In this document: piece by piece, positions 1 through 37,995 of the stretch
Layout: each line of letters begins with the position of its first letter
How positions within the stretch are numbered: the first letter of the stretch is position 1
Position numbers and translations under genes: made by a program
Notes under the pieces: model-generated
Database searches by the model: none
Told to the model about the DNA's origin: nothing
What the model saw: the letters and a program-made list of their open reading frames with translations, nothing else
Virus record (IMG/VR): IMGVR_UViG_3300048080_000252
Span: 1 to 37,995 of that record
From: a virus
Reading direction: 5' to 3' (one strand)
Length of the DNA: 37,995 nt

Positions 1-43
1 CCAACGCCGGAGACCAGGCAATGCCGCGCCAGTTGTTGTCGGC
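1..43. repeat. Terminal overlap: nt 1-43 identical to nt 37953-37995 (assembly-type circular closure)
   Basis: Direct reading: ccaacgccggagaccaggcaatgccgcgccagttgttgtcggc occurs at both ends. The junction lies inside a 185-nt exact internal repeat (316-500 equals 37869-37995 plus 44-101). Confidence 0.9.
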
Positions 44-595
44 GGCGCTGGTGCGGATCGTCCAGGTGATCCCATCGGGCGAGGTCATCACCCGGTTGCC
101 CACCCCGCTGGCGAAGGCCACAGCCACGAACAGGCCGCGCTCAGGCGACCAGGCAATGGCAGTCCAGCCATTGTCGGCGGCGCTGGTACGGATCGTCCAG
201 ATGATCCCATCGGGTGAGGTCATTACCCGGTTGCCGACTCCGCTGCTGGCCACGACTGCGAACAGACCGAGCTGCAGCGACCAGGCGACGGCATTCCAGT
301 TGTTGTCGGCAGGCGTGGTGCGGATCGTCCAGGTGATCCCGTCGGGCGAGGTCATCACCCGGTTGTTCGTCCCGGTCTCCGCCACGGCCACGAACAGGCC
401 CAACGCCGGAGACCAGGCAATGCCGCGCCAGTTGTTGTCGGCGGCGCTGGTGCGGATCGTCCAGGTGATCCCATCGGGCGAGGTCATCACCCGGTTGCCC
501 GTCCCGTTGATGGCCACAGCCGCGAACAGGCCGCGCTCAGGCGACCAGGCAATGCCGTACCAGTTGTTGTCGGCCGCGCTGGTGCGGATCGTCCA
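1..595 (-). repeat. 132-nt (44-aa) coding tandem repeat array, terminator cassette, units 1 to mid-5
   Basis: Period-132 recurrence of ggtgcggatcgtccaggtgatccc(a/g)tcgggcgaggtcatcacccggttg. It translates on the minus strand to WTIRT(S/T)(A/P)ADNxWxxIAWSPxxGLFxAVAxxGxGNRVMTSPDGIT. Confidence 0.9.
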
Positions 596-883
596 AGCCA
601 CGCCCATCGCTCCCCGGAAGCCGTCCAGTGCCACCCGGACAGCGTTCATCACGCCCCGCAGCGCCGGATAGGTCGCGGCGGCCCCGGTGATCTGGAACCG
701 CGGATGCGCCAGGCCCGACGGCCCGCTGTGCGAGCGCACCCTGGGCCCGGAGATCCGCTGGTAGACGAGGTACGGCAGGGCGGCCTCCTGCGGCGCTTCG
801 ATCGGGTAGATGCGTGTGCCCACCAGGGCTGCCACGCCGGCGTTGTTCTTGAGGTGCTCGTACAGCGCCTCCTCGATGACCAT
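1..883 (-). CDS. Tail terminator (DUF3168/SPP1 gp17-like) carrying an inserted 7-unit propeller-like repeat cassette; 5' part, continuing at 37952..37537 if the contig is circular
   Basis: ATG at 883 abuts the TAG (884-886) of the upstream gene. The N-terminus (MVIEEALYEHLKNNAGVAALVGTRIYPIEAPQEAALPYLVYQRISG...) looks like a tail terminator and sits in the terminator position after the gp15/gp16/gp16.1-like genes. From residue 97 the frame reads 44-aa WTIRTSAADNNW..GNRVMTSPDGIT units. The ORF is open to nt 1 and absent from the ORF track only because it has no stop in the window. 883+416 nt = 433 codons, in frame with the right-end ORF. Confidence 0.75.
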   Translation of the reverse strand, partial: MVIEEALYEHLKNNAGVAALVGTRIYPIEAPQEAALPYLVYQRISGPRVRSHSGPSGLAHPRFQITGAAATYPALRGVMNAVRVALDGFRGAMGVAWTIRTSAADNNWYGIAWSPERGLFAAVAINGTGNRVMTSPDGITWTIRTSAADNNWRGIAWSPALGLFVAVAETGTNNRVMTSPDGITWTIRTTPADNNWNAVAWSLQLGLFAVVASSGVGNRVMTSPDGIIWTIRTSAADNGWTAIAWSPERGLFVAVAFASGVGNRVMTSPDGITWTIRTSAADNNWRGIAWSPAL

Positions 884-5214: not shown

Positions 5215-5215
5215 C

Positions 5216-18460: not shown

Positions 18461-18785
18461 CGTGCTCAGGCCTCTTGGTAGCGAGCCAGCCGTTCCGGGA
18501 GAGAAGATCTCCTAGGGCCATCGCCAACCGGTCCACGTCCTCGTCCTTCTTCAACCCCAGGCCCAACTCGGAGTCGATGGCATGTAGACACTCGTGGAGC
18601 AAGCCCTGGAGCACATCGGCGTCGTTCCGTCCGTTGTCGTAGATCCGGATGGTCCTGCTCCAATAATCGCACTGGCCCCAGAGCGACTGCCGGCCATAGA
18701 GGTCAACATCCGAAGGGCGATCGCAGTAAGTGATCGCGTAGGACTTCCCCAGAATGTTGACGGTCGTCGGACGGAAGGCCATCAC
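18450..18785 (-). CDS. Small HExxH (zincin-like) protein
   Basis: 111 aa with LLHECLHAI after a beta-rich N-terminus. The ATG overlaps the ParB-like stop (ATGA). Confidence 0.6.
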   Translation of the reverse strand: MMAFRPTTVNILGKSYAITYCDRPSDVDLYGRQSLWGQCDYWSRTIRIYDNGRNDADVLQGLLHECLHAIDSELGLGLKKDEDVDRLAMALGDLLSRNGWLATKRPEHDED

Positions 18786-20566
18786 TCCTCCTCGTCCGTT
18801 TCCGTGGAAACACCCTGCGCCTTGGGCTCGAGGGCTTCGGCGCGCTTCAACCAGTCCACCGGCAGCTTCACGCCCAGGCTCTGGGCCACGCCCTGCAGGT
18901 GCTTGGCCGTGGCCGCCGGGCCCTTCCTCCGGACGTCATGCCCGGTGAGTTCCTCCTGCAGCAGGTCGAAGACGATCATGCCGCGCAGCGTCGCACAGCG
19001 AGCCGCCTTCTTCGCCGGCAGCTTCTTTCGCCAGGGGCCGTACTTCCGGCCCGTCGTCATAGCCAGGACCTCGAGAATGCCCGGGCTGTCCAGGCCTTTG
19101 AGCAGCGGGGCGAAGAGCGGCGTCGCCTCGCGCTCGAGGAATTGCATGGAGGCGTCTCCCCGCTTCTGCGCTTCCCGGCGCTTACGCTCCTCAGCTGCGT
19201 AGTCGTAGTGCTGGCCACCTGCCTGGCGGTTTCGGCGCTTGTCGGCCGCCTTCGCCTGCTCGGCCGGCTTGCCGACGCGGACGAGCTCGACGACGTAGGA
19301 CTTCGTGCCGGCATGCGGACGGTAGTCAGGCGTCGTGCCCTTGAGGCGCAGGCTCTTGTCCTTGGCCTCGAGCATCTTCTGCCAGGCGGGGTCGAGGGCC
19401 TCAGAGCTGTCAATCCATCGAGTCGGCGCCTTCACGAAAGCCTTCCCGTCGCCGCCGGGATCGTAGACGGGAATACCGAGCTTCCGGGACAGGCGGGCCG
19501 TCTCGGCCGAGATCCAGGCCTTGCGCTTCTGCTCCCAGCAAGCCTTGATGCCGCAGTAGTGCGCGCCGTCGAGCACCTGGTGGAACTCGCACGAGCTGCA
19601 GGGGGGCGGCGCGACAAACTGACCGATCCACGCGGCGAGCTCCTCGCCGATCCCGTACAGCTTCACGACGCCGGCGACGTCCGTGCCCGAGGCGAGCGCG
19701 GCTATGTAGGGCGCAAGCGCGGCGGGCTCGATCTCGTCGCTGGCCAGTCGCCCGTGCGCCTCGAGAAGTTTCAACAGGGCGGCTGGCGTCGGCGCCTGCA
19801 CGCCGCCCTTCCAGGTCAGCGGCCACAGGCCCGTCCCGGCGCGGCCCTTCCCGTCATCGTCATCCTCCTCGTCGGCCTGAGCCCGGTAGTAGCGGTTCGC
19901 GCCCATGAGGAAGGCCTGCTCGTTGAGGACGTCGGCCACGCGTTGAAAGATCGCCTCCGACGTCTCGACCTTGTTCTTGACCAAGTCCTCGGCGACCTTC
20001 TCGATCGCCTGAGGTGCAATCCGATTCAGAGCCAGGAGCCGGCGGGCTGCCCCTTCCTGGATCTCGCCGGCCTGCACCCTCTCCTGCACCGATGCCGGGA
20101 GCTCGAGCAGCCGCATCTTGTTGCGCACCGCCGAGCCGGAAAGCCCGAACAGCTCGCCGATATCGTCCGACGTCTTGCTGAACTGATCGCGGTAGGTGGC
20201 CATCGCCCGGGCCTCCTCGATCGGGGTCAAGTCCTTGCGATCGACGTTCTCCCGGATGGCCAACTCGAACATCGCCAGGTCGGTGAGAGCCCGGACATCG
20301 ACGGGCATCTGGTCGTAATCCCAGCGCTCCGTCTTGGGATCTGCGTGCGCTTCCTGTGTCAACGCCTTGAAGGCGGCCAGGCGCGTGTGGCCGAAAGCCA
20401 GCTGCACGACGCCTTTGTCCTTATCCCGGCGGCCGACAGGGATCTGCAGAAGCCCGACCTGGGCAATCGACTCCGCCAGGCGCGCGACATCGGCAGGATC
20501 CTCAGCCTGGCGGGTCTGGAAAGGATTCGGCGCGATCTGATCCAGCGGGAAGCGTTCGACGGTCAT
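18782..20566 (-). CDS. Large ParB/Srx-domain protein (594 aa) with long C-terminal extension including a Cys cluster
   Basis: FPLDQIAPNPFQTRQAEDPADVARLAESIAQVGLLQIPVG...LAFGHTRLAAFKAL (ParB N-domain), an HTH-like ..IGELFGLSGSAVRNKMRLLEL.., and CSSCEFHQVLDGAHYCGIKAC. Confidence 0.75.
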   Translation of the reverse strand: MTVERFPLDQIAPNPFQTRQAEDPADVARLAESIAQVGLLQIPVGRRDKDKGVVQLAFGHTRLAAFKALTQEAHADPKTERWDYDQMPVDVRALTDLAMFELAIRENVDRKDLTPIEEARAMATYRDQFSKTSDDIGELFGLSGSAVRNKMRLLELPASVQERVQAGEIQEGAARRLLALNRIAPQAIEKVAEDLVKNKVETSEAIFQRVADVLNEQAFLMGANRYYRAQADEEDDDDGKGRAGTGLWPLTWKGGVQAPTPAALLKLLEAHGRLASDEIEPAALAPYIAALASGTDVAGVVKLYGIGEELAAWIGQFVAPPPCSSCEFHQVLDGAHYCGIKACWEQKRKAWISAETARLSRKLGIPVYDPGGDGKAFVKAPTRWIDSSEALDPAWQKMLEAKDKSLRLKGTTPDYRPHAGTKSYVVELVRVGKPAEQAKAADKRRNRQAGGQHYDYAAEERKRREAQKRGDASMQFLEREATPLFAPLLKGLDSPGILEVLAMTTGRKYGPWRKKLPAKKAARCATLRGMIVFDLLQEELTGHDVRRKGPAATAKHLQGVAQSLGVKLPVDWLKRAEALEPKAQGVSTETDEEE

Positions 20567-21128: not shown

Positions 21129-21712
21129 GAGCTCGGCCTCTCACCCCTGACGTAATGAGACCCCTCACAGCGATCGTTCAGCGCCAGCGGGTTCACTCGG
21201 ACATGGCAACGGGGGCATTCGACCATGCCCGAGCCGACCACAACGGGAACAGCCTCGGCGACGGCCCGGGGGGCTGTCGCCTCTCCCTCTCCCTCTCCCT
21301 CTCCCTCTACCTCTACCTCTACCTCTTGCTCGGGAAACGTTCGGTTTACGTTCGCATGTCGTTCGGCCCCCCATAGCTGGCCTTGGTGTTGCCCTCTCCG
21401 CCACCGCTTGGCCCTTTCGGCCGAAGACTCTGCCGCCTGCCGTTCAGCGAAGTTGGAGACCCACCAGAAGCCGCCGCGGTTCTCGACGATGCCGGCCTTG
21501 GCAATCTCGACCAAGTCCGATTCGAGCTCCTCAGAAGTCCTTCGGAGCCGCCACGCCATCCACTCCAACGCCGGCAACCGGCCTTCCTCGTCGAAGTCAC
21601 CCGCCAACAGGAAGAGCTCGACGACTCTCCTCCAGAGGCGATCTTCGAGGCTCCCCATCTTGGGGTCGTCGAGGATCTCGTGATAGAGCTTGATCCAGAA
21701 CTTGGATTTCAC
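21125..21712 (-). CDS. Replisome-organizer-like (phage replication initiation, N-terminal wHTH-type) protein
   Basis: Start trimmed to the GTG at 21712, which overlaps the upstream stop (GTGA). VKSKFWIKLYHEILDDPKMGSLEDRLWRRVVELFLLAGDFDEEGRLPALEWMAWRLRRTSEELESDLVEIAKAGIV is the typical phage_rep_org_N-like opening. It has a low-complexity (EV)n(EG)n linker and a C-terminal CPRC. Confidence 0.6.
   Translation of the reverse strand: MKSKFWIKLYHEILDDPKMGSLEDRLWRRVVELFLLAGDFDEEGRLPALEWMAWRLRRTSEELESDLVEIAKAGIVENRGGFWWVSNFAERQAAESSAERAKRWRRGQHQGQLWGAERHANVNRTFPEQEVEVEVEGEGEGEGEATAPRAVAEAVPVVVGSGMVECPRCHVRVNPLALNDRCEGSHYVRGERPSS
21281..21326 (-). repeat. In-frame hexanucleotide microsatellite (ctctcc)x4 (ctctac)x3
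   Basis: Read directly. It encodes EVEVEVEGEGEGEGE within the replisome-organizer-like gene. Confidence 0.9.
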
Positions 21713-24973: not shown

Positions 24974-26488
24974 ATGCCCTTCCGTGCCGCCATCTGGGCG
25001 GCCGTTTCCACGGAAACGCAGGCCGCCAGCGATAAGGTCAGCCTGGGCGCCCAGGAAGAGCTCTGCCGATCGCTCCTGACGTCCCGGGGCTGGCATGAGG
25101 TTTCCGGGCCCTACGTCGTCCCCGGGGCCTCCCGCACCCGCTGGGTGAACCTACGCGACGCCGAACGGGAGATCCCCCAGCTCGGGCTCATGCTGGACGA
25201 TGCCCAGGCCGCCCGCTTCAACCTCCTGGTCCTGTACGACTTCAACCGTCTGCGAGATCTGCTGGATCCTGTCTCGCGGACCCTGGCAGCCTATGGCACC
25301 CAGGTCTTCTCCGTCTCCCAACCCGTGGATCCGCTGCCTCCGGAGGAGTTCGACGGGTACACCGCCGATACCTCGAGCATGGTGCAGGGCCTGAGTCAGA
25401 TCATCTCTCGGGCCCAGATCGCCGATCTCCGACGGAAGTATCGCGTCGCCATGCCCCGACGGGTGAAAGAGTTCGGGCTGCCGGCGAACGGGATCCCTTA
25501 CGGCTATGCCAAGCCACAGGGGAGAGAGACAGATCGCAAGGCCGTGCCGGTGCAGATCTCTCAAGAAATCGAGACGCTGCAGTTGATCAGGAATCTCTTC
25601 CTCTCCGGCCACAGCCGGGCAGATATCGCCCTGGCCCTGACGTCGATGGGAATTCCTCCTCCGCGAAGCCACTGGAACCCAGCCACGATCGGGATGCTCC
25701 TCACCAATCCCTTCTACTGTGGCCTAGTCGTCTTCGGCCGCAGCCGGGTGAAGGCGGATCCCCGATCGGGCCAGCGGAAACGGCTCCAGGGTCTCCCGCG
25801 CTCGATGTGGGCGATCGGCCAGGGGAAGCACGAGCCCCTCTGGACACAGGACGAGTTCGAAGAGGTGCAAGAGGAGATCCGGCGCCGGCGAGGGCGCAAC
25901 ATCGGGATCCGGCGCCCCGTTTACCAGCTGAGCAGTATCCTCCGATGCGCCGAATGCGGCTCTACCCTTGGCCGCTTTCGGAACGGCCCACGAGGCGAGT
26001 CGGATGGAGCCATCTGGCGCTGCTACCTCGGCTCCTCACACCCGCGGGCCTCAATAAGCGAGGCCAGGGCTCTAAGCCAGCTGGCCGGACATTTGCACGC
26101 GCTGCTGGACGGAGTATCCCTTCCCGCTTTACCAGTAAGTGTAAAGACGGGAAGCCCAGCTCCGAGCCCGGAGCAGCTCAGCGCCAAGAGGCTGCGCTAT
26201 CAGCGCGCGTATGGCGACGGCCTGATGTCCTACGAGGACTTCGCCGGCAGGATCCGAGAGCTCGATGAACAGGCCGAATTGATCGCGCGTCGGGCCAACC
26301 AGCAGACGTCGCACCGAAGGCATCGGAAGACCGTCGACCGCCTGGCCGGGATCCTCGGGGCGCTACCTGCCTTCCTGAGCGACGCGCCGCCGCTCGAGGT
26401 CAACCAGGCGCTGCGCGATCTCCTCGAGGGAATCGTTGTCGGCCGAGGGATGATCGTGGAAGTGCAACTGCGGGCTGAGCCGCGTTGA
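24974..26488 (+). CDS. int: Large serine recombinase (phage integrase)
   Basis: N-terminal resolvase-type catalytic motif AAIWAAVSTETQA (Ser12), a recombinase domain (..GIPYGYAKPQG..) and a zinc-ribbon LRCAECGSTL...WRCY. 504 aa. Confidence 0.85.
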   Translation: MPFRAAIWAAVSTETQAASDKVSLGAQEELCRSLLTSRGWHEVSGPYVVPGASRTRWVNLRDAEREIPQLGLMLDDAQAARFNLLVLYDFNRLRDLLDPVSRTLAAYGTQVFSVSQPVDPLPPEEFDGYTADTSSMVQGLSQIISRAQIADLRRKYRVAMPRRVKEFGLPANGIPYGYAKPQGRETDRKAVPVQISQEIETLQLIRNLFLSGHSRADIALALTSMGIPPPRSHWNPATIGMLLTNPFYCGLVVFGRSRVKADPRSGQRKRLQGLPRSMWAIGQGKHEPLWTQDEFEEVQEEIRRRRGRNIGIRRPVYQLSSILRCAECGSTLGRFRNGPRGESDGAIWRCYLGSSHPRASISEARALSQLAGHLHALLDGVSLPALPVSVKTGSPAPSPEQLSAKRLRYQRAYGDGLMSYEDFAGRIRELDEQAELIARRANQQTSHRRHRKTVDRLAGILGALPAFLSDAPPLEVNQALRDLLEGIVVGRGMIVEVQLRAEPR

Positions 26489-28091: not shown

Positions 28092-28526
28092 CTACTTCAG
28101 ATTGGTGGCCGCCAGGATGATGACGACCAGGGCGTTCACAGCAAGAATCGCCAGGAACTTCCAGTCGATAGATCCCTCCTTGACATGCTCGACCTTGAGC
28201 TCGGATACCTCGGAGACGTTGGCCAGGCGCGTTTCCATCAGCTCCGCCTCCGGGACCTTCACCTTCTCCAAGACGGTGATCCGCGTTTCGTGCTCGGCCG
28301 CTGTATTGCGCAGGCCTGGACTGTGGTTGCCCACGATCTCCTTGTGGATCTCGTCCACCTTGCGGTAGTAGTGAGCCTGGTCTGACTCCATCCGGTCGAC
28401 CTTCTGCGAAAGGGAGTCGAGCTCCTGGCCATTGGCCTCGGAGAGCTGTTTGAGATCTGCCATCGCCCCCCGGATGAATGCCAGCTGCACGGGGACCACG
28501 TCGGACGGATTGGTATCGGGCATCAC
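28092..28526 (-). CDS. XhlA-like coiled-coil protein with C-terminal TM anchor (lysis accessory)
   Basis: 144 aa: a long coiled-coil followed by WKFLAILAVNALVVIILAA. The ATG overlaps the upstream stop (ATGA). Confidence 0.55.
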   Translation of the reverse strand: MMPDTNPSDVVPVQLAFIRGAMADLKQLSEANGQELDSLSQKVDRMESDQAHYYRKVDEIHKEIVGNHSPGLRNTAAEHETRITVLEKVKVPEAELMETRLANVSEVSELKVEHVKEGSIDWKFLAILAVNALVVIILAATNLK

Positions 28527-29485
28527 GGGTGAGCGCCTCCGGGTTGGTGTTGGGCTTCCAGCGTGGCCACGCGTTCCTCAAGCGGCACGGGCAGCGGGGC
28601 GGGCGGCGGCGTTTCCGGGGAAACAAGCTGCAGGTTGGCGATATAGGTGGCCAGCTCCGGCAGCCGATAGAGCGTCTTGTCCAGCGACCAGAAGTTGATC
28701 CCCACCAGGCGCGTCCCGAGGTTCTGCCTCAGCCACTCCACCATGAGCGAGACGCCCTCCACCGAGGGCTTCCAGCCTGGTGCTGCCTCGTAGCCTGTTC
28801 CGATGAATGCTGGCAGGGTGGGGAACCAGGGGATATCCGGCCGGCCGACGCGCTGGGCAATCACCTCGTGGCTCTGCACGTCCCGCGCCACCTGCGCCAG
28901 GTAACGGCTGGGATTGGTCTCACCGATCGGATACAGCTGATGGGCCAGGCCGTCGATGATGTAGAGGCCTGTGGGGCGCCCAGGCTCATCGCCCGGCGCT
29001 TCGACGCGGTACTTGAGCCACTTCTCCCACTGCATCCAGGAATTGCCGGGCGCGTAGCGGTAGGACTGGAGGTAGACCTTGCAGGGCAGCCGCCCGAGCG
29101 CCCTCAGGAACGGCCCCAGGTTGGCGATGTGCTTTTGCGCTATGTCGCCCTCGACGTCGAGAAAGACATAGGGCGGGTTGTAGTACGGGACGATCGTGCC
29201 CCTGAGCAGCCGCGCTTCGGCCTCCCACAGCCTGAGGTAGATCGGGCCCCAGACGTCCACAGGAATCGGCGCCGGCAGGGCTTTCAGTGCGCGCTCGAGA
29301 TCCCGATAGGTCCGTCCCTTCCACACAACCTTGGTCTGCAGCTTCCCGCCATACTCGAACGGGCCTTCGATGGCGCGGAGGGCAACCCGATCGGGCCTGA
29401 GTGCGACGATCTCCTGGATGGTCTGCTCGAACGACCATCGGGTGCCGGTCCAGTTCCAGGGCCAGGTAAGGCTAAGGCTTTTCAT
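28523..29485 (-). CDS. Putative endolysin (TIM-barrel/GH25-like glycoside hydrolase; tentative)
   Basis: 320 aa. It sits directly upstream of, and coupled to, the XhlA-like and holin genes. ..VFLDVEGD.., ..KVYLQSYRY.. and ..GINFWSLD.. loosely resemble GH25 motifs. GGAGGAGG RBS upstream. Confidence 0.4.
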   Translation of the reverse strand: MKSLSLTWPWNWTGTRWSFEQTIQEIVALRPDRVALRAIEGPFEYGGKLQTKVVWKGRTYRDLERALKALPAPIPVDVWGPIYLRLWEAEARLLRGTIVPYYNPPYVFLDVEGDIAQKHIANLGPFLRALGRLPCKVYLQSYRYAPGNSWMQWEKWLKYRVEAPGDEPGRPTGLYIIDGLAHQLYPIGETNPSRYLAQVARDVQSHEVIAQRVGRPDIPWFPTLPAFIGTGYEAAPGWKPSVEGVSLMVEWLRQNLGTRLVGINFWSLDKTLYRLPELATYIANLQLVSPETPPPAPLPVPLEERVATLEAQHQPGGAHP

Positions 29486-29521
29486 TTGCAGTCGACACCG
29501 CCTCCTCCGTTCATCGAAACC

Positions 29522-32500
29522 TCACTGCCCGGTCATCGCCCGGTTGCCGGTGCCGCTGCCGGCCACGGCGGCGAACAGACCCAAGGCGGGAGACCAAGCG
29601 ATGCCATCCCAGCTGTTGTCGGCCGGGCTCGCGCGGATCGTCCAGTTGATCCCGTCGGGGGAGATCATCGACCGGTTGCCGACGCCGCTGTAGGCCACGG
29701 CCGCAAACAGGCCCAGCTCGGGCGACCAGGCGATGCCATCCCAACTGTTGTCGGCGGCGCTGGTACGGATCGTCCAGTTGATCCCGTCGGGCGAGGTCAT
29801 CACCCGGTTGCCCACGCCCGTTTCGGCCACGGCGGCGAACAGACCCAAGGCGGGCGACCAAGCGATGCCATTCCATCTGTTGTCGGCCGCGCTGGTGCGG
29901 ATCGTCCAGTTGATCCCGTCGGGCGAGGTCATCACCCGGTTGCCCACGCCGCTGTAGGCCACGGCGGCGAACAGACCCAACGCGGGCGACCAGGCGATGC
30001 CCGCCCAACTGTTGTCGGCCGCGCTGGTGCGGATCGTCCAGTTGATCCCGTCGGGCGAGGTCATCACCCGGTTGCCGACGCCGCTGGCGGCCACGGCGGC
30101 GAACAGACCCAAGGCGGGAGACCAAGCGATGGCGTGCCAGAAGTTGTCGGCGGCGCTGGTACGGATCGTCCAGTTGATCCCGTCGGGCGAGGTCATCACC
30201 CGGTTGCCCACGCCGCTGCCGGCCACGGCGGCGAACAGACCCAAGGCGGGAGACCAAGCGATGGCGAGCCAGAAGTTGTCGGCGGCGCTGGTACGGATCG
30301 TCCAGTTGATCCCGTCGGGCGAGGTCATCACCCGGTTGCCGACGCCGCTCTTGGCCACGGCGGCGAACAGACCCAAGGCGGGCGACCAGGCGATGTCCGC
30401 CCAGCCGTTGTCGGCCGCGCTGGTGCGGATCGTCCAGTCTAATTTAGCAAAGGCGAACTCGCTCCGCCACGTCGTTCGCACGAGCATCCCGGCACGGTCA
30501 AGCCACTCGTGCTCGACCATCCCCAGGCGGCCGTAGTCGTCGATGCCGTAGTCCGGAAGCCGGAGACGGATCCTATCCAGCAGGTCGGCGGCAAATTGGA
30601 GGTCCGGCCGGCCGACTACACTCACCAATGGATACAGATGCTGGCCGGAGAGGAGGCTCGCCAGCAGGGCGGCGATCTCCTGGCCCTTGGCCGTGTTCTG
30701 CTGCCAGGGCAGGTCGTGCTCGAAGACGCTTCTCACATTGGCGGCCGCCGTGGCCTCGAGGATCGTGGGATTGGGCTCTGCCAACGCATCGCCGCGGACC
30801 TTGAGCAGCGTGATGTATCCGTTTACGCCCCCGGTGTTCGACACCACGAGCTTCACCGTCAGGCCGAAGACCGTCGCCACTACGGTGAAGTTTCCCGTTA
30901 GATTCGTCCCGCTGCCATCCGAGGCCGAGTTCATCAGGTAGTCCGTCGTGGCTACCGGCGTCAGCACGCCGAGCGCGGGGACTTCCTGGTTGTTGTAGGA
31001 AAACGGCGCGAAGAGAGTCAGCGACTCGCCGGCGGGGACGAAGGGCGTGTCCTGCAACCGCCACAGCTCGCCGGTCGCCTGGCGCACACGGGGATGGACG
31101 ATGACTTTGGCCTTGCCCCGCACGATCTCCCACGGCTGGGGCAGGCCGACCTCCCGCTGCACGTCCGCCTGATAGACAGTTAGAACGACGTCGTCAGAGG
31201 CATACCGGCCGCGGAACTTCGCCTTGCCGTCGGCGGCGATGGTGAACAGGCCGAGCTCGCTCTCCGCCAGGTCCTGGATCTCCTGGTCCGCCTGGCGGCG
31301 GTCCGCCCACCAGTAGCGGATCGTGTCGGCCGAGCCGATCAGGTCACGGCCCCACAGCGCCGGCCAGGAGACGTCGTCGAGCACCAGCCCGATCGCCGTC
31401 CCCGTGGCGATGTTCTCCTTGACGGCGATGCTGGTGGAGCGCTCCTTGAGCCAGGCCCATCCGTCCTCGAGGACGATCTGCACACGGGGATTCAGCACGT
31501 CGCCCGAAGGGCGGAGATCGGCGATGCGTCCGGCGAAGACGGGATGCGTGACAAGGCCGTCGTGGACCCGGATCCTGGCAAAATGCCCGGGCTTGACATT
31601 GGGATAGAGTGGCGAGGCCACGTTGTAGGCGTTGTAGCGACCCTGCGGGTTGTTGAGGACCGCCGTCGCCGTCCCCACGGAGAACCGCTCGAAGCCGTCG
31701 CCGCCGGGCTTGATGAAGAAATCGCGGCCGCGCCGGCCCTTGAGGTCCACGAGGTTCTGTGCTTCGTCTGCATCAGGAACCGTCACCGAGGTCATCGCCC
31801 GGTTTCCGGTGCCGCTCTGCGCCACGGCCGCGAACAGGCCCAGTGCAGGCGACCAGGCGATGCCGAGCCACTGGTTGTCGGCAGCGCTGGTGCGGATCGT
31901 CCAGTTGATCCCGTCCGGCGAAGTCATCGCCCGGTTGCCGGTGCCGGTGAGGGCCACCGCCCCGAACAGGCCCAGCTCAGGGGACCAGGCGATGCCGTAC
32001 CAATCATTGTCGGCCGGAGTGGTGCGGATCGTCCAGTTGATCCCGTCAGGCGAAGTCATTGCCTGGTTGCCCACGCCGGTACGTGCCACGGCTACGAATA
32101 GGCCCAGTTCCGTAGACCAGGCGATGGCGTTCCAGTTGTTGTCAGCCGGAGTGGTGCGAATCGTCCAGTTGATCCCGTCGGGCGAGGTCATCGCCCGGTT
32201 GCCGGCGCCGCTCTGGGCCACGGCCGCGAACAGGCCGAGCTGCGGCGACCAGGCGATGCCACTCCAGTTGTTGTCGGCCGGAGTGGTGCGGATCGTCCAG
32301 TTGATCCCGTCGGGCGAGGTCATCGCCCGGTTCCCCACGCCGGTTACCTGTGCCACGGCTACGAATAGGCCCAGTTCCGTAGACCAGGCGATGGCGTTCC
32401 AGTTGTTGTCAGCCGGAGTGGTGCGAATCGTCCAGTTGATCCCGTCGGGCGAGGTCATCGCCCGGTTGCCGGCGCCGCTCTGGGCCACGGCCGCGAACAG

Positions 32501-33682
32501 GCCGAGCTGCGGCGACCAGGCGATGCCACTCCAGTTGTTGTCGGCCGGAGTGGTGCGAATCGTCCAGTTGATCCCATCCGGCGAGGTCATCGCCCGGTTT
32601 CCGGTGCCGCTCTGCGCCACGGCCGCGAACAGGCCCAGCGAAGGTGACCAGGCGATGGCGACCCACAAGTTGTCGGCGGAGGTCATGACCCGGTTGCCGA
32701 TCCCACTCCAGGCCACGGCTGCGAACAGGCCCAGCTGCGGCGACCAGGCGATGCTGTACCAGTTGTTGTCGGCCGGGGTGGTGCGGATCGTCCAGGTGAT
32801 CCCGTTGGGCGAGGTCATCACCCGATTGCTGACGCCGCTGTAGGCGACAGCCGCGAACAGCCCGAGCTCAGGCGACCAGGCGATGCTGTACCAGTTGTTG
32901 TCGGCCGGAGTGGTGCGAATCGTCCAGTTGATCCCGTCGGGCGACGTCATCACCCGATTGCCGGTCCCGCTGTTGGCCACGGCCGCGAACAGACCCAACG
33001 CCGGCGACCAGGCGAGGCCATACCACTGGTTGTCGGCCGGGGTGGTGCGGATCGTCCAGTTGATCCCGTCGGGCGAGGTCATCGCTCGATTGCCGGTCCC
33101 GCTGTTGGCCACGGCCGCGAACAGACCCAACGCCGGCGACCAGGCGATACCCTGCCAGTTGTTGTCGGCAGCGCTGGTACGGAGCGTCCAGTTGATCCCG
33201 TCGGGCGAGGTCATCACCCGGTTGCCCACCCCGCTAGAAGCCACAGCCACAAACAGGCCGAGAGCAGGCGACCAGGTGATGCCATACCAACTGTTAAGGC
33301 CGGGCGTGGTGCGGATCGTCCAGTTGATCCCGTCAGGCGAGGTCATCGCTCGATTGCCGGTCCCGCTGTTGGCCACGGCCGCGAACAGACCCAACGCCGG
33401 CGACCAGGCGATGGCGAACCAGCTGTTGTCGACGGGGGTGGTACGGAGCGTCCAGTTGATCCCGTCGGGCGAGGTCATCACCCGGTTGCCCACCCCGCTA
33501 AAGGCCACGGCCGCGAACAGACCGAGCTCAGGCGACCAGGCGATCCCCAGCCAATTGTTGTCCGGGGTGGTGCGGAGCGTCCAGGTAGGCGGCGAGGAGC
33601 GCAGCATCCAGGTCAATTTGTCAAACGCGCCATCGTCATCCCAGTCGACCTGGAATTCCCAGCGCAGAGCCGGTAGCGTCAT
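29522..33682 (-). CDS. Dit-like distal tail protein (1386 aa) carrying three 7-unit propeller-like cassettes
   Basis: The ATG overlaps the tape-measure stop (ATGA). The non-repeat parts are residues 1-23 (..RWEFQVDWDDDGAF..) and 633-1082 (..GRRGRDFFIKPG..ATAVLNNPQGRYNAYN..YITLLKVRGDAL..MVEHEWLD..). Repeats occupy residues 24-632 (14 units) and 1083-1386 (7 units). Confidence 0.8.
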   Translation of the reverse strand: MTLPALRWEFQVDWDDDGAFDKLTWMLRSSPPTWTLRTTPDNNWLGIAWSPELGLFAAVAFSGVGNRVMTSPDGINWTLRTTPVDNSWFAIAWSPALGLFAAVANSGTGNRAMTSPDGINWTIRTTPGLNSWYGITWSPALGLFVAVASSGVGNRVMTSPDGINWTLRTSAADNNWQGIAWSPALGLFAAVANSGTGNRAMTSPDGINWTIRTTPADNQWYGLAWSPALGLFAAVANSGTGNRVMTSPDGINWTIRTTPADNNWYSIAWSPELGLFAAVAYSGVSNRVMTSPNGITWTIRTTPADNNWYSIAWSPQLGLFAAVAWSGIGNRVMTSADNLWVAIAWSPSLGLFAAVAQSGTGNRAMTSPDGINWTIRTTPADNNWSGIAWSPQLGLFAAVAQSGAGNRAMTSPDGINWTIRTTPADNNWNAIAWSTELGLFVAVAQVTGVGNRAMTSPDGINWTIRTTPADNNWSGIAWSPQLGLFAAVAQSGAGNRAMTSPDGINWTIRTTPADNNWNAIAWSTELGLFVAVARTGVGNQAMTSPDGINWTIRTTPADNDWYGIAWSPELGLFGAVALTGTGNRAMTSPDGINWTIRTSAADNQWLGIAWSPALGLFAAVAQSGTGNRAMTSVTVPDADEAQNLVDLKGRRGRDFFIKPGGDGFERFSVGTATAVLNNPQGRYNAYNVASPLYPNVKPGHFARIRVHDGLVTHPVFAGRIADLRPSGDVLNPRVQIVLEDGWAWLKERSTSIAVKENIATGTAIGLVLDDVSWPALWGRDLIGSADTIRYWWADRRQADQEIQDLAESELGLFTIAADGKAKFRGRYASDDVVLTVYQADVQREVGLPQPWEIVRGKAKVIVHPRVRQATGELWRLQDTPFVPAGESLTLFAPFSYNNQEVPALGVLTPVATTDYLMNSASDGSGTNLTGNFTVVATVFGLTVKLVVSNTGGVNGYITLLKVRGDALAEPNPTILEATAAANVRSVFEHDLPWQQNTAKGQEIAALLASLLSGQHLYPLVSVVGRPDLQFAADLLDRIRLRLPDYGIDDYGRLGMVEHEWLDRAGMLVRTTWRSEFAFAKLDWTIRTSAADNGWADIAWSPALGLFAAVAKSGVGNRVMTSPDGINWTIRTSAADNFWLAIAWSPALGLFAAVAGSGVGNRVMTSPDGINWTIRTSAADNFWHAIAWSPALGLFAAVAASGVGNRVMTSPDGINWTIRTSAADNSWAGIAWSPALGLFAAVAYSGVGNRVMTSPDGINWTIRTSAADNRWNGIAWSPALGLFAAVAETGVGNRVMTSPDGINWTIRTSAADNSWDGIAWSPELGLFAAVAYSGVGNRSMISPDGINWTIRASPADNSWDGIAWSPALGLFAAVAGSGTGNRAMTGQ
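29525..30436 (-). repeat. 132-nt coding repeat array, Dit C-terminal cassette (7 units)
   Basis: WTIRTSAADNxWxxIAWSPALGLFAAVAxSGVGNRVMTSPDGIN occurs seven times. The last unit is truncated at ..GNRAMTGQ*. Confidence 0.9.
31787..33613 (-). repeat. 132-nt coding repeat array, Dit N-terminal insertion (14 units = 7+7)
   Basis: Units WT(I/L)RTTPADNxW...GNR(A/V)MTSPDGIN. An internal junction ..GNRVMTS|ADNLW.. lacks 12 aa exactly between units 7 and 8. The array ends ..GNRAMTS|VTVPD. Confidence 0.9.
32083..32599 (-). repeat. 267-nt higher-order (two-unit) duplication inside the N-terminal array
   Basis: 32083-32332 and 32350-32599 differ at 3 of 250 positions by direct alignment. Confidence 0.9.
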
Positions 33683-35592
33683 CGGCTCACCCCGAAGGCC
33701 TTGCGCACGGCTGCCTCGATGTAGGGCGCCAGACGCGTCTCGGCCTCGTAGCGATCGGCCAGGGAGACGAGCGGCGAATACTGCAGGCTGACTTGCACGG
33801 AGGTCCCGCCGCCGAAGCCGCGGGTGGGTACGCCAGCGCCCACGCCGACTGCCGCCAGGGACGGAAGCCCCGGCATGGCCAGGCCTACGCTCAGGGCGGG
33901 CAGCCCTCCCTCGAGCGCCCGCAGCTGCCCGACAATCCCGCGCAGCCCGAGCTCGAATGGCGTCGGACTTCCAGGGGTCAACCAGCTCGGCAGCTTGACG
34001 TTACGGACCGCGTTCGCGAAGGCATTGAGCTTGTCGACGACGCGCTGGATCAGGTCGCGGATCGTATTGAACGGTCCCAGGAGCGGCACCAGCACGTGAT
34101 CCTTCAACCACTGGAGGGCCGGACCGATGACAGTCATCACGACGCCGGCGACGCGCTGGAGAATCGGCAGGATGTTCTCCACGAGGAAGCTCCAGACCTT
34201 CTGGAGCGCCGGCCATAGGACGTTCGTCCACAGGCCGGCCAGGATGCGCAGGGCCAGCCCGAGGACGGCGCCCACGACGTCGGCCACGGCTCGGATCACC
34301 GGCATGATGACGTTGCGGAAAATCTCAGCCATTTGATTCAGGAAGGGCTTGATCTTCCCCTCCCAGATCGCCGTCAGGACATCGCGGATCCCGCCCCAGT
34401 TGTTTTTCCAGGCCGCCGCGAAGAGGGCGATGATCGCGACGATGGCCAGGATGGCCAGCCCCACAGGCCCGGTCAACACGCCGGCGACGGCGCCCAGGAC
34501 AGGCAGCAGTGTCCCGATGGCGCCCACGATGGAGCCGATCACGATCAGCAGCGGCCCGGCGGCCGCAGCAATGCCCAGGATGGTCAGGATGGTCTTGCGC
34601 TGCGCGGGATCCAGCGCCGTGAACTTCTCTATGAGGCCTTGAAGCCAGACGACCAGTTCCTTGGCGATGGGGAGCAAGTCCGTGCCAATGGCGCCCGCCG
34701 CGTCGACCAGCTGTGCCTTGAGGGTGCGCTGTGAGTTGGCCAGGCTGTCGCTCGTCCGGATGAAGTCGCCCTGCGCGTTCGTCGTCTGCTCCATGATCAG
34801 GGCGTAGGCCGCCTGCGCCCGCTGCGCCGGCGTGAGCGCCTCCTGAGCGCCCAGGGTCGCCTCGTTGAGACGCTCCTGGATCTCGGCCAGCTTCTGGGCC
34901 GAATCGCGGGCCTGAATGCTTCCCTCGCCCCACTTGGCGATGGCTTCCGTGTCGGCGATCTGCGCCTTTTCCAGGTCGAGGGTGAGCCCTTGCACGGCGG
35001 TCATGTCAACGCTCAGGTCGACCAGGCCGAGCTCCATCGCCTTGGCAGCGATCGTCGCCGCGTTGAGGTTCACGCCCAAGCGGCGCAGCGGCTCGACCTC
35101 GCCCACCAGCCCGGCGCGCAGCGCCATCGTCGCCTCGGTCGGGTCGATGTTGTTGAACGAGGCCAGGTCGGTGGCCAGCGTCACCAGACCGGTAGACATG
35201 TCGGCCGCGGCTTTCGGCCCCATCTCCATCGACGTGAACAGGTTGCCGAACGTGCCGGCCGCGTCGAGAGCCTGCTGCCGCGACTGGCCGAGCGACGTCG
35301 CCGCCGTGTCGGCCCAGGCCTGGACCTCTGCCGCGCTCTCGCCAAAGACGACGTTGACCTTGTTGACCGTCTCCTCGAGGTCGCTTGCGGCCTTCACCGC
35401 CGCCACGCCGGCGCCGATGATCGGCAGCGTCAGGCCCATTGTCATGCCACGCCCGACCGAGGTCATCCCGGCGCCGATCGTCTGCATCCGGCGCCCGACG
35501 TCCTGGAGCCTTTCAACGCTCGAGCGCAGGTCCGCGTCGAAGCGGGACGCATCCAGAAGCAGGCTGACGATCAGGCTGCTCAGCGTTGCCAT
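33679..35592 (-). CDS. Tail tape measure protein
   Basis: 637 aa. The N-terminal region (..VERLQDVGRRMQTIGAGMTSVGRGMTMGLTLPIIGAGVAAVKAASDLEE..FGNLF..LASFNN..) is of the TP901-type TMP core, followed by a long hydrophobic/Gly-Ala-rich middle. The gene follows the G/GT genes. Confidence 0.85.
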   Translation of the reverse strand: MATLSSLIVSLLLDASRFDADLRSSVERLQDVGRRMQTIGAGMTSVGRGMTMGLTLPIIGAGVAAVKAASDLEETVNKVNVVFGESAAEVQAWADTAATSLGQSRQQALDAAGTFGNLFTSMEMGPKAAADMSTGLVTLATDLASFNNIDPTEATMALRAGLVGEVEPLRRLGVNLNAATIAAKAMELGLVDLSVDMTAVQGLTLDLEKAQIADTEAIAKWGEGSIQARDSAQKLAEIQERLNEATLGAQEALTPAQRAQAAYALIMEQTTNAQGDFIRTSDSLANSQRTLKAQLVDAAGAIGTDLLPIAKELVVWLQGLIEKFTALDPAQRKTILTILGIAAAAGPLLIVIGSIVGAIGTLLPVLGAVAGVLTGPVGLAILAIVAIIALFAAAWKNNWGGIRDVLTAIWEGKIKPFLNQMAEIFRNVIMPVIRAVADVVGAVLGLALRILAGLWTNVLWPALQKVWSFLVENILPILQRVAGVVMTVIGPALQWLKDHVLVPLLGPFNTIRDLIQRVVDKLNAFANAVRNVKLPSWLTPGSPTPFELGLRGIVGQLRALEGGLPALSVGLAMPGLPSLAAVGVGAGVPTRGFGGGTSVQVSLQYSPLVSLADRYEAETRLAPYIEAAVRKAFGVSR

Positions 35593-37536: not shown

Positions 37537-37995
37537 TCACTCCCCGTGCCACAGCACGACATCGAGCCGCGCCACGAAACTTTCCTCGCTGTCCATCTCG
37601 TTCTCAACCAGGGCGGCCCCCACCGGTACCCCTGGTGAGGTCATCACCCGGTTGCCCACCCCGCTAAGGGCCACGGCCACGAACAGACCGCGCTCAGGCG
37701 ACCAGGCGATAGCAGTCCAGCTATTGTCGGCGGGCGTGGTGCGGATCGTCCAGGTGATCCCATCGGGCGAGGTCATCACCCCGTTGCCCGTCCCGCTAAG
37801 GGCCACGGCCACGAACAGACCCAGCTGCGGCGACCATGCGATGGCTCGCCAGTTGTTGTCGGCGGCGCTGGTGCGGATCGTCCAGGTGATCCCGTCGGGC
37901 GAGGTCATCACCCGGTTGTTCGTCCCGGTCTCCGCCACGGCCACGAACAGGCCCAACGCCGGAGACCAGGCAATGCCGCGCCAGTTGTTGTCGGC
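37537..37995 (-). CDS. 3' part of the tail terminator-propeller gene (continuation of 883..1 across the junction)
   Basis: Open from the right window edge to the stop at 37537-39, in the same frame as the left part once the 43-nt overlap is removed. It contains units 5-7 and ends with the non-repeat tail GVPVGAALVENEMDSEESFVARLDVVLWHGE*. Confidence 0.75.
   Translation of the reverse strand, partial: ADNNWRGIAWSPALGLFVAVAETGTNNRVMTSPDGITWTIRTSAADNNWRAIAWSPQLGLFVAVALSGTGNGVMTSPDGITWTIRTTPADNSWTAIAWSPERGLFVAVALSGVGNRVMTSPGVPVGAALVENEMDSEESFVARLDVVLWHGE
37633..37995 (-). repeat. 132-nt coding repeat array, terminator cassette, units mid-5 to 7
   Basis: Same unit as 1-595. The 7th unit is truncated at ..GNRVMTSP. 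Confidence 0.9.

What the first reader, a model, noticed from the sequence alone, without database searches (positions are those of the whole stretch)
29525..30436. Four phase-identical cassettes of exactly seven units: a self-contained 7-blade module used as a plug-in
Seen, all four arrays share the same boundaries:
- Each has a leading WT(I/L)RT strand, then seven ADNxW....GNRxMTS cores.
- The seventh unit is always cut right after MTS: ..GNRVMTS|ADNLW (internal 7|7 junction), ..GNRAMTS|VTVPD, ..GNRAMTGQ* and ..GNRVMTSP|GVPVG.
- The unit counts are 7, 7+7 and 7, giving 28 units, about 3.7 kb or roughly 10% of the genome.
- Each unit has three invariant Trp residues and an S-P-D-G-I-x-W element resembling an Asp-box (SxDxGxTW).

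Established:
- Tandem units of about 40-50 aa with Asp-box-like turns build beta-propellers.
- Highly symmetric propellers such as tachylectin-2, the RSL/AAL fucose lectins and the seven-bladed Photorhabdus PLL lectin are multivalent sugar binders that use Trp at inter-blade sites.

Inference: one closed 7-blade lectin-like module has been duplicated as a unit and grafted into two different tail-ring proteins. This would be a modular host-adhesion system rather than random repeat expansion.
Basis: partly seen in the sequence, partly recalled or inferred. Interest (0 to 1): 0.8.

Follow-up and report, generated by a model that had tools for sequence, protein, structure and literature searches.

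The report
Seven-blade propeller cassettes in phage tail
A 38-kb phage carries four copies of a ready-made seven-bladed propeller domain, spliced with identical boundaries into its tail-terminator and tail-tip hub proteins; close relatives lack them, making this a clear but not unprecedented case of plug-in domains on phage tails, probably for sticking to the host.

Summary
There are 28 units of 44 aa in four cassettes of seven, all in the same phase: one leader strand WT(I/L)RT, then seven cores ending at ..MTS.

AlphaFold gives a closed seven-bladed propeller (pLDDT 97.8, 28 strands). Its nearest solved fold is Ycf48, followed by WD40 proteins. No lectin propeller is in the top 50.

The carriers are:
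- a tail terminator (PF11367);
- a gp27/Mu-gp44/VgrG-like tail-tip hub, encoded directly after the tape-measure gene.

Two syntenic sister phages have a 126-128-aa terminator and hubs without these cassettes, so the cassettes are true insertions. One cassette even sits inside another, between its leader and first core.

Seven is a family property. More than 16,000 protein clusters carry this module, and array lengths peak sharply at seven.

Not supported:
- recent duplication of one cassette within this genome: there is no positional orthology, and cassettes from unrelated proteins are equally close;
- specific kinship to lectins.

Variation concentrates in three positions per blade, on the canonical binding face. 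This favours a binding role, but the ligand is unknown.

Verdict: a real and neat example of a known kind. Interest is moderate.

The parts
29525..30445 (-). Cassette 3: leader strand (KLDWTIRTSA) plus seven cores, fused to the C-terminus of the hub protein (residues 1080-1386). It ends ..GNRAMTGQ*. These are the coordinates of the finding.
   Evidence: Translation. Unit positions. AlphaFold2 model of residues 1077-1386: pLDDT 97.8, 28 strands.
30446..31786 (-). Core of the tail-tip hub protein (residues 633-1079, including the linker VTVPDA). It has a gp27/Mu gp44/VgrG-like fold.
   Evidence: Free-standing homologues are about 500 aa. The core profile hits the phiTE hub 9cuy_X at E 4e-4. The model of homologue P0124 (pLDDT 89.9) matches CIS/T6SS/Mu/T4 hub proteins at E 1e-15 to 1e-9.
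31787..32677 (-). Cassette 2: seven cores (residues 336-632). It starts directly at ADNLW after cassette 1 and ends ..GNRAMTS|VTVPD. It contains a 208-nt exact internal repeat (blades 2 and 4).
32678..33586 (-). Cassette 1: leader TWTLRTTP plus seven cores (residues 33-335). It is inserted between the leader and the first core of cassette 2.
   Evidence: Deleting residues 33-335 restores a canonical TWMLRSSPP|ADNLW leader-core join. The 32-aa junction without a D strand is unique among the 323 family proteins then in hand.
33587..33613 (-). Displaced leader strand of cassette 2 (TWMLRSSPP, residues 24-32).
   Evidence: Sequence. Strand count: 14 cores against 12 internal D strands plus 2 leaders. 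That it pairs with blade 7 of cassette 2 is inferred, not modelled.
33614..33682 (-). N-terminal 23 residues of the hub core (..VDWDDDGAFDKL), separated from the rest of the core by the 615-aa double cassette.
   Evidence: It aligns with residues 2-22 of P0122, which continue directly into NEAVNLVGL. The P0121 sequence shows the same.
33679..35592 (-). Tape-measure protein gene, immediately upstream of the hub gene. It fixes the hub's place in the tail module.
   Evidence: PHROG tape-measure families, E down to 1e-31. 79% identical to the L001 tape-measure protein.
602..883 (-). Tail terminator / tail completion protein, N-terminal part (residues 1-94).
   Evidence: PF11367 at E 3.5e-12 and phrog_347 'tail terminator'. 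84% identical to the 126-aa L001 orthologue.
1..601 (-). Terminator cassette, first 4.5 units (leader VAWTIRTSA plus cores 1-4 and part of core 5). It runs off the window start.
37636..37995 (-). Terminator cassette, remaining units (cores 5-7, ending ..GNRVMTSP). The last 43 nt duplicate window positions 1-43.
37537..37635 (-). Tail terminator C-terminal 32 residues (GVPVGAALVENEMD..WHGE) and the stop codon.
   Evidence: It aligns with residues 95-126 of the L001 orthologue.

Best explanation
**What the unit is**
- The 132-nt units encode the blades of a closed seven-bladed beta-propeller domain of about 305 aa.
- The domain belongs to a very large, mostly unnamed family related to the Ycf48 / Asp-box-like propellers.
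- Its boundaries are fixed. It starts with strand D of blade 7 (WT[IL]RT) and ends right after strand C of blade 7 (..MTS).
- The chain therefore enters and leaves through neighbouring strands of one blade.
- This lets the whole domain be spliced into a surface loop or onto an end of another protein without disturbing it.

**Where it has been spliced in this phage (four sites)**
1. Into a loop of the tail terminator, between residues 94 and 401.
2. After the first 23 residues of the tail-tip hub.
3. Into that second cassette itself, between its leader and its first core. This gives a propeller nested in a propeller.
4. Onto the hub's C-terminus. There it takes the place of two small genes that sister phages have. 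One of those genes is weakly tail-fibre-like.

**Inferred consequence for the virion**
- With a hexameric terminator and a trimeric hub, the virion would display about 6 propellers at the neck and 9 at the tail tip.
- The blades are near-identical scaffolds. Variation is concentrated in three positions (ADN-x-W-x and AVA-x).
- These positions sit at the start of strand A and the end of strand B, the face where propellers usually bind ligands.
- An invariant Asn-Arg lies next to them in each blade.
- The most likely role is accessory, multivalent binding to a host surface component, for reversible adsorption.

**Shown and inferred**
- Shown: the fold, the boundaries, the insertions, the identity of the carrier proteins and the pattern of variation.
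- Inferred: the oligomeric display, the pairing of the nested strands, binding as such and the nature of the ligand.
For: **Fold**
- AlphaFold2 pLDDT 97.8, pTM 0.94, 7 x 4 strands with an N-terminal closing strand.
- Ycf48 (5ojr) is the top match, E 1.6e-13 and TM 0.71, followed by seven-bladed WD40 proteins.

**Carrier proteins**
- PF11367 and the tail-terminator PHROG for one.
- Hub fold for the other, encoded directly after the tape-measure gene.

**Insertions**
- Sister phages L001 and L003 are syntenic.
- Their terminator is 126/128 aa and aligns to both sides of the cassette.
- Their hubs align to residues 1-23 and 639-1077.
- None of 35 terminator homologues carries an insert of this size.

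**Same boundaries elsewhere**
- Unrelated proteins P0015, P0249, P0263, P0288 and P0009 show a leader plus seven cores, cut after MTS or the equivalent position.

**Seven as a family mode**
- 88 of 120 top hits have seven unit matches.
- 195 runs of seven in the first count.
- 234 of about 400 confident internal arrays have seven blades.

**Partner domains typical of surface or tail-fibre proteins**
- T9SS sorting domain, Big_2, C1q, BclA_C, DUF2793, Mu Gp48, phage depolymerase C-terminal domain.
- Tail-spike chaperone domain and collagen-like proteins.
- More distant hub homologues carry a Laminin_G_3 (concanavalin-like) domain instead.

**Variation**
- Three columns have entropy 2.3-3.5 bits; most others are below about 1 bit (two reach 1.6-1.7).
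- Those three columns hold 36% of all amino-acid differences, against 9% expected.

**Gene replacement**
- The 170-aa and 208-aa genes downstream of the hub in L001 are absent here.
- The 208-aa protein hits a tail-fibre PHROG at E 4e-4.
Against: - No binding assay exists and no solved homologue has a ligand.
- The nearest solved folds (Ycf48, WD40) bind proteins or peptides rather than sugars.
- Pfam, NCBIfam and PHROGs give no functional name for the cassette.
- A collar of propellers on the head-proximal terminator is an odd place for a host adhesin.
- The location of the variable residues was deduced from strand order, not from inspected coordinates.
- The counts in two of the four arrays are minimal solutions across exact repeats of 185-208 nt.
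Confidence: 0.6

Rival explanations
1. The propellers are protein-binding scaffolds rather than glycan binders. They would dock other virion parts, such as fibres or neck whiskers, or recognise a proteinaceous host receptor. This is how Ycf48 and WD40 propellers use their top face.
For: The nearest solved structures are Ycf48 bound to a D1 peptide, followed by many WD40 adaptors. No lectin propeller is in the top 50. The window lacks the two small post-hub genes of its relatives, so attachment points may have been rearranged.
Against: Fold neighbours among propellers say little about the ligand. Family members are mostly secreted or tail-fibre-type proteins. Different residues at the variable positions in every blade fit a polymeric surface ligand at least as well as a single protein partner.
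Confidence: 0.2
2. The arrays are a recombination-driven diversification device. Near-identical blades carry a few hypervariable contact residues and are reshuffled by gene conversion or unequal exchange. This would give the phage new binding surfaces quickly, as proposed for fungal NLR WD40 repeats.
For: - Exact tracts of 208 nt (cassette 2, blades 2 and 4) and 185 nt (terminator cassette, blades 2 and 5) lie in arrays whose other blade pairs differ at many synonymous sites (dS 0.25-0.66). This points to recent conversion.
- Variation is focused on three columns.
- Two assemblies of a sister phage are 99.925% identical over 6,686 nt, and all 5 differences fall in the hypervariable codons of one blade.
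Against: - The L001/L005 difference is more simply explained if L005 starts in another blade of an array that collapsed in L001.
- No population data are available.
- The same pattern follows from ordinary purifying selection on a scaffold.
- No reverse transcriptase was seen among the ten large ORFs scanned, and Q, E, K and W occur at the variable sites, so a retroelement mechanism is unlikely.
Confidence: 0.2
3. The propellers are passive decoration. They would add bulk, stabilise the neck and tip, or shield conserved tail proteins, and would have no specific ligand.
For: Sister phages manage without the cassettes at these sites. A location on the terminator is far from the host-contacting tip.
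Against: Keeping 3.7 kb (about 10% of the genome) under purifying selection is costly for mere bulk; dN/dS is 0.25-0.5 overall, with changes concentrated in three columns. The module recurs in tail-fibre, baseplate and secreted proteins.
Confidence: 0.12
4. The propeller is an enzyme: a sialidase or glycosidase-like Asp-box propeller acting as a depolymerase.
For: Asp-box propellers include sialidases and several glycoside hydrolase families (PMC9218822, citing Quistgaard and Thirup 2009). One family member carries a phage depolymerase C-terminal domain.
Against: - All seven blades are nearly the same, so no asymmetric catalytic site is apparent.
- There are no hits to glycoside hydrolase or BNR models in Pfam or NCBIfam.
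- No sialidases appear among the top structural matches.
Confidence: 0.04
5. The counts of seven, or the arrays themselves, are assembly artefacts.
For: The contig ends lie inside a 185-nt exact repeat, and cassette 2 holds a 208-nt exact repeat. A sister assembly (P0121) shows only two units and is probably collapsed.
Against: - Cassettes 1 and 3 have no exact repeat above 77 nt.
- The reading frame is intact through all arrays and into conserved flanks on both sides.
- All four arrays give seven, the family-wide mode in independent data.
- The loops in cassette 2 and in the terminator cassette contain unique sequence, so they must be traversed at least once.
Confidence: 0.03

Closest known systems
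Ycf48 / HCF136 photosystem II assembly factor (PDB 5ojr), an Asp-box-like seven-bladed propeller
   Same: It is the best solved structural match (E 1.6e-13, TM 0.71). It has seven four-stranded blades of about 44 aa and an S-x-D-G..W-type turn between strands C and D. From memory, not checked here: Ycf48 uses a conserved arginine patch for binding; the cassette has an invariant Asn-Arg in each B-C loop.
   Different: Sequence identity is only 16%. Ycf48 blades have diverged, whereas these are 75-84% identical to each other (median per cassette). Ycf48 is a free-standing cellular protein, not an inserted module. The turn here (SPDGINW) is one residue shorter than the canonical SxDxGxTW.
Highly repetitive, recently amplified beta-propellers such as Nostoc WRAP (PDB 2ymu); Pereira and Lupas 2022 (PMC9218822), Afanasieva et al. 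2019 (PMC6805158)
   Same: The blades are near-identical. Fourteen blades fold as two seven-bladed propellers. 2ymu is the fourth-best structural match. The phenomenon is documented in all kingdoms including viruses, and in the Asp-box group.
   Different: WRAP blades lack synonymous differences, which indicates very recent amplification. Here dS between blades is 0.25-0.66, so the similarity is maintained rather than new. The blade consensus is shared by thousands of proteins.
Phage receptor-binding proteins with propeller domains: phi11 Gp45 (five blades, GlcNAc-sized central cavity), PhiKZ gp131C (seven blades, PDB 4GBF), PRD1 P2 (PMC4901313)
   Same: These are propellers displayed on phage tail or baseplate proteins, with a proposed receptor-binding role at the central cavity.
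   Different: They are dedicated receptor-binding or baseplate proteins with diverged blades. None appears in the top 50 structural matches. Here the propeller is inserted into a tail terminator and a central hub.
'Evolved' siphophage tail-tip proteins carrying inserted carbohydrate-binding modules (Dit or Tal with CBMs; reviewed in PMC6115969, found; the description here is from memory)
   Same: The principle is the same: a conserved ring-forming tail protein tolerates insertion of an accessory binding domain in a loop. Relatives carry different inserts at the same places, for example the roughly 190-aa insert of P0122 and Laminin_G_3 in distant hub homologues.
   Different: The inserted fold is a seven-bladed propeller. 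One carrier is the head-proximal terminator. Three copies sit in one hub protein, one nested in another.
Pfam DUF6242 (PF19755), EPTP (PF03736) and DUF7397 (PF24130)
   Same: 20 of 59 aligned family members hit DUF6242 and 11 hit EPTP. The window proteins reach DUF7397 at 27.9-30.2 bits against a cut-off of 27. BFVD neighbours are labelled DUF6242.
   Different: No single repeat in the window passes on its own (0 stretches). None of these families has a tested function.

Membership tests
Closed seven-bladed beta-propeller fold | Seven four-stranded antiparallel blades arranged in one domain | tested here: met
   The AlphaFold2 model of cassette 3 has pLDDT 97.8, pTM 0.94 and 28 strands in 7 x 4 order. 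Top Foldseek matches are seven-bladed propellers with TM 0.70-0.76.
Closed seven-bladed beta-propeller fold | Ring closure by a 'velcro' strand: a terminal strand completes the blade formed by the other terminus | tested here: met
   The strand order is E7-10 (WTIR), then six full blades, then only three strands (E282-288, 293-298, 306-309). All four cassettes and unrelated family members start with this strand and stop after strand C. Coordinates were not inspected directly.
Asp-box (BNR) propeller superfamily | SxDxGxTW turn between strands C and D of most blades | tested here: inconclusive
   24 of 28 units have S-P-D-G-I-(N/T)-W between strands C and D (one variant reads SPNGITW), one residue shorter than the canonical motif. 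The best solved neighbour is the PSII_BNR-type Ycf48. No BNR, Sortilin or PSII_BNR Pfam model is hit.
Pfam DUF6242 / EPTP / DUF7397 | Score above the curated gathering threshold | tested here: inconclusive
   The window proteins reach DUF7397 at 30.2 and 27.9 bits (cut-off 27), but no individual stretch passes. DUF6242 is hit by 20 of 59 homologues and EPTP by 11 of 59, not by the window cassette.
Propeller lectins (tachylectin-2, RSL/AAL, PLL) | Structural or sequence kinship with these lectins | tested here: not met
   None is among the 50 best of 1,549 significant PDB matches. A sequence search of the PDB finds only CIAO1 (a WD40 protein) at E 0.048.
Propeller lectins (tachylectin-2, RSL/AAL, PLL) | Sugar binding at repeated sites | not testable with these tools
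   This needs glycan arrays, ITC or co-crystals.
Tail terminator / tail completion protein (PF11367, phrog_347) | Profile match and conserved position between the head-closure/gp10-like genes and the tail tube gene | tested here: met
   PF11367 at E 3.5e-12 (47 bits, cut-off 24.5) and phrog_347 at E 1.2e-8. 84% identity to the 126-aa orthologue. Gene order is as in L001 and L003.
Baseplate/tail-tip hub (T4 gp27, Mu gp44, VgrG N-terminal, siphophage Tal N-terminal) | gp27-like fold and a gene directly downstream of the tape-measure gene | tested here: met
   The model of homologue P0124 (45% identical to the core, pLDDT 89.9) matches hub proteins of CIS, T6SS VgrG, Mu gp44, T4 gp27 and 80alpha at E 8.5e-16 to 1e-9. 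The core profile hits the phiTE hub at E 4e-4. The tape-measure gene is adjacent. The test was run on a homologue, not on the window protein itself.
Recently amplified propellers (sensu Pereira and Lupas) | Median internal blade identity above 60% | tested here: met
   Median core identity is 0.75-0.84 within cassettes. The criterion is taken from PMC9218822.
Recently amplified propellers (sensu Pereira and Lupas) | Few or no synonymous differences between blades (recency) | tested here: not met
   dS between blades is 0.25 (cassette 3) to 0.58 within cassettes and 0.52-0.66 between them.
Diversity-generating retroelement target | Reverse transcriptase and template repeat; variable residues reachable by adenine mutagenesis | tested here: not met
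   No reverse transcriptase is found among the ten large ORFs scanned. The variable columns include Q, E, K and W. Small ORFs were not scanned.

The most novel reading that the evidence does not exclude
The cassette may be more than a decoration. It could be a standardised, insertion-ready binding scaffold that phages and bacteria exchange and reprogram. Fixed velcro-phase ends would let it drop into any loop, even into another copy of itself. Three hypervariable residues per blade, ringed by invariant Asn-Arg, would be reshuffled between blades by gene conversion to change specificity. That would make it a natural repeat-protein 'antibody' system on phage tails.
Probability: 0.2. Interest if true: 0.7.

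Novelty: new member of a known kind. Interest (0 to 1): 0.42.

Why it matters
- The window, set beside two sister phages, gives an unusually clean before-and-after picture of domain insertion into conserved tail proteins. There are four sites, all with the same domain boundaries, and one cassette is nested in another.
- It explains why the boundaries are fixed: the entry and exit strands are neighbours in one blade.
- It flags a very large family, more than 16,000 clusters at 50% identity, that has no functional annotation. The family recurs on tail fibres, baseplates and secreted proteins.
- It points to three candidate specificity positions per blade that could be tested or engineered.
- It also warns that short-read assemblies can collapse such arrays, as in the sister phage's apparent two-unit array.

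Tried and rejected
**Searches that found nothing useful**
- Megablast of 25 kb of the window against the phage collection: no match.
- Scan of viral contigs for the hub core: no relative.
- Exact look-up of the 1386-aa protein: not on record.
- NCBIfam: only chance-level hits.
- Sequence search of the PDB with the cassette: only CIAO1 at E 0.048.
- Literature on DUF6242 and on 'tail terminator' plus 'propeller': nothing relevant to this module.

**Ideas rejected**
- *Distal tail protein (Dit)* as the identity of the post-tape-measure protein. The fold search gives hub proteins.
- *Whole-cassette duplication within the genome.* There is no positional orthology, and external cassettes are equally close.
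- *Very recent amplification.* dS is 0.25-0.66.
- *The two-unit array of P0121 as evidence against the rule of seven.* An independent assembly that is 99.925% identical breaks inside the array and shows a third, different blade, so the array is probably collapsed in L001.
- *A diversity-generating retroelement.* argue against it.

**Not possible**
- Inspecting model coordinates.
Full report
**1. What is in the sequence**

The window is 37,995 bp with 66% G+C. Its two ends share an exact 43-nt overlap, so it closes to a 37,952-bp circle. It is a siphophage-type genome. The identified genes are:
- portal, large terminase, a large serine recombinase and ParB-like genes;
- head closure, gp10-like, tail terminator, tail tube and tape-measure genes.

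Tandem Repeats Finder reports 132-nt arrays at 29531-30438, 31787-32657, 32672-33584, 12-595 and 37637-37995. All are read on the minus strand.

The ORF at 29522-33682 (1386 aa) holds 21 cores. The ORF that spans the window ends holds 7 after the overlap is removed. The coordinates given in the finding cover cassette 3 (29525-30445).

**2. Fold**

I aligned cassette 3 with 58 homologues and modelled it.
- The model has pLDDT 97.8 and pTM 0.94.
- It has 28 strands: one N-terminal strand (WTIR), six complete A-B-C-D blades, and a last blade with only A-B-C.
- The leader is therefore strand D of blade 7, the classical velcro closure.

Foldseek against the PDB puts Ycf48 first (5ojr, E 1.6e-13, TM 0.71). 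Next come seven-bladed WD40-type and designer propellers, including the 14-blade Nostoc protein 2ymu. No lectin propeller is among the top 50. Sequence search of the PDB is essentially empty.

**3. The carrier proteins**

The 432-aa protein is a tail terminator / tail completion protein (PF11367, E 3.5e-12; phrog_347).

The 1386-aa protein follows the tape-measure gene directly.
- Its non-repeat core (residues 1-23 plus 639-1079) belongs to a family of free-standing proteins of about 500 aa with no Pfam domain.
- A profile of that family hits the phiTE baseplate hub (9cuy_X, E 4e-4).
- A model of homologue P0124 (pLDDT 89.9) matches hub proteins of contractile injection systems, T6SS VgrG, Mu gp44, T4 gp27 and phage 80alpha at E 1e-15 to 1e-9.

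It is therefore the tail-tip hub, not a Dit ring.

**4. The cassettes are insertions**

Two sister phages were recovered: L001 (ENA, 36.7-kb contig) and L003 (NCBI MAG contig). They have the same gene order, and most structural proteins are 72-92% identical, down to 41-56% for a few.

*Terminator.*
- Their terminators are 126 and 128 aa.
- The L001 protein aligns with residues 1-94 (84% identity) and with the last 32 residues of the window protein.
- The cassette is therefore a 306-aa insertion in a loop.
- None of the 35 detectable terminator homologues exceeds 208 aa.

*Hub.*
- Their hubs align with residues 639-1077, and the N-terminus of P0122 aligns with residues 3-23.
- The double cassette (residues 24-638) is therefore inserted after the first 23 residues.
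- Cassette 3 is appended after ..TTWRSEFA.

*Missing genes.* The 170-aa and 208-aa genes that follow the hub in both relatives are absent here. The 208-aa protein weakly resembles a tail fibre (phrog_38058, E 4e-4).

**5. A cassette within a cassette**

- Cassette 2 starts at ADNLW, directly after ..MTS of cassette 1. The usual PDGINWTIRTTP is missing.
- This 32-aa spacing occurs nowhere else among 323 family proteins.
- Upstream of cassette 1's leader lies a second leader-like segment, TWMLRSSPP.
- Removing residues 33-335 (TWTLRT...MTS) leaves TWMLRSSPP|ADNLW, a normal leader-core join.
- The strand count also balances: 14 cores against 12 internal D strands plus 2 leaders.

I infer that cassette 1 was inserted, with the standard boundaries, between the leader and first core of cassette 2.

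**6. Is seven real, and is it general?**

*In the window.*
- Cassettes 1 and 3 contain no exact repeat above 77 nt.
- Cassette 2 has a 208-nt exact repeat (blades 2 and 4).
- The terminator cassette has a 185-nt exact repeat (blades 2 and 5), and the contig ends inside it.
- In those two arrays seven is the minimal solution.

*In the family.*
- A search of 1.84 billion cluster representatives finds 16,685 proteins at E <= 1e-3 and 4,291 at E <= 1e-30. Many have several cassettes.
- With a blade HMM built from the window units, 88 of the 120 best single-cassette hits have exactly seven matches.
- Among confident internal arrays, 234 of about 400 have seven blades. There are shoulders at 6 and 8 and a small second peak at 13-16.
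- Unrelated proteins show the same boundaries: a leader plus seven cores, cut at ..MTS.

*The one apparent counter-example.* P0121 shows a two-unit array in a third hub loop. It is probably collapsed.
- An independent JGI contig (L005) is 99.925% identical to L001 over 6,686 nt.
- It begins inside the array.
- All 5 of its mismatches fall in the hypervariable codons of its first blade.
- It therefore shows a third, different blade.

**7. How the cassettes relate to each other**

- Blades at equal positions in different cassettes are no more similar than blades at different positions: 0.735 against 0.736, 0.793 against 0.789, and so on.
- Nearest neighbours are mostly within the same cassette.
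- The cassettes are 75-80% identical to each other. Cassettes from unrelated proteins reach 81-87%.
- Synonymous divergence between blades is 0.25-0.66.

So there is no sign of a recent whole-cassette duplication in this genome, nor of very recent amplification. Independent acquisition from a common pool, plus intra-array conversion, fits better. G+C content does not set the cassettes apart.

**8. Pattern of variation and likely function**

- Across the 28 units, three columns are hypervariable: the residue between ADN and W, the residue after that W, and the residue after AVA. Their entropy is 2.3-3.5 bits. Most other columns are nearly invariant.
- These three columns hold 36% of all amino-acid differences, against 9% expected.
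- The family consensus is variable at the same places.
- By strand order, they lie at the start of strand A and the end of strand B. That is the D-A / B-C loop face around the central channel, where propellers usually bind ligands.
- The conserved SPxLG turn and the Asp-box-like turn are on the other face.

Two further observations point the same way:
- the family's partner domains are T9SS sorting signal, Big_2, C1q, BclA_C, DUF2793, Mu Gp48, depolymerase C-terminal domain, tail-spike chaperone and collagen repeats;
- other inserts occupy the same places in relatives.

Together this points to a displayed binding module. The ligand is unknown. A lectin function is possible but not specifically supported.

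**9. Comparison with what is known**

- Highly repetitive propellers, including 14 blades folding as 2 x 7, are well described (PMC9218822, PMC6805158).
- Propellers on phage receptor-binding proteins are known: phi11 Gp45, PhiKZ gp131C and PRD1 P2 (PMC4901313).
- Accessory binding domains inserted in siphophage tail-tip proteins are known (my own recollection; the review PMC6115969, found, was not read here).

What is unusual here:
- the terminator as a carrier;
- three copies in one hub;
- the nested insertion;
- a clean comparison with cassette-free sisters.

**10. Verdict**

- It is a new member of a known kind, with an uncommon architecture.
- Interest is moderate.

Noticed in passing
window 1-43 and 37953-37995: The window ends share an exact 43-nt overlap, so the record is a circularised contig of 37,952 bp. 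The junction lies inside a 185-nt exact repeat of the terminator cassette.
   Followed up: yes
L001:10949-11201 (P0121 residues 317-400) and L005:1-260: The sister phage's hub shows a two-unit array in a third loop. An independent assembly, 99.925% identical over 6.7 kb, starts in this array. It differs only at 5 nt, all in the hypervariable codons. Either the array is collapsed in L001 or variation between strains is strikingly targeted.
   Followed up: partly
window 28523-29521 compared with L001:11718-12858: The 170-aa and 208-aa genes that follow the hub gene in both sister phages are missing from the window. The hub there ends in cassette 3 instead. The 208-aa protein weakly matches a tail-fibre PHROG.
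   Followed up: partly
P0122 residues about 320-510 (L003:10001-12037): The second sister phage carries an unrelated insert of about 190 aa with no Pfam match. It sits in the same hub loop where L001 has repeat units, so this loop is a hot spot for insertions.
   Followed up: no
window 6618-9116 (minus strand), repeat at 6745-6991: The portal protein is 832 aa, against 664-675 aa in the sister phages. Its C-terminal part contains a 123-nt tandem duplication (2 copies, 87% matches).
   Followed up: no
window 21280-21326: A CCTCTC hexanucleotide microsatellite of 7.8 copies.
   Followed up: no
window 24974-26488 (+), 17489-18460 (-), 18782-20566 (-): A large serine recombinase and two ParB-like genes suggest a temperate or plasmid-like lifestyle.
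   Followed up: no
P0174 (7024 aa), residues about 3708-5900: A giant family member has one uninterrupted run of 48 blade matches; a looser count gave one run of 58 among all proteins, presumably the same array. It also has several seven-blade cassettes. How such a long array folds is unclear.
   Followed up: no
window 32083-32290 and 32350-32557: A 208-nt exact repeat at an offset of 267 nt makes blades 2 and 4 of cassette 2 identical at the DNA level, while the neighbouring blades differ. This looks like a recent conversion tract.
   Followed up: partly
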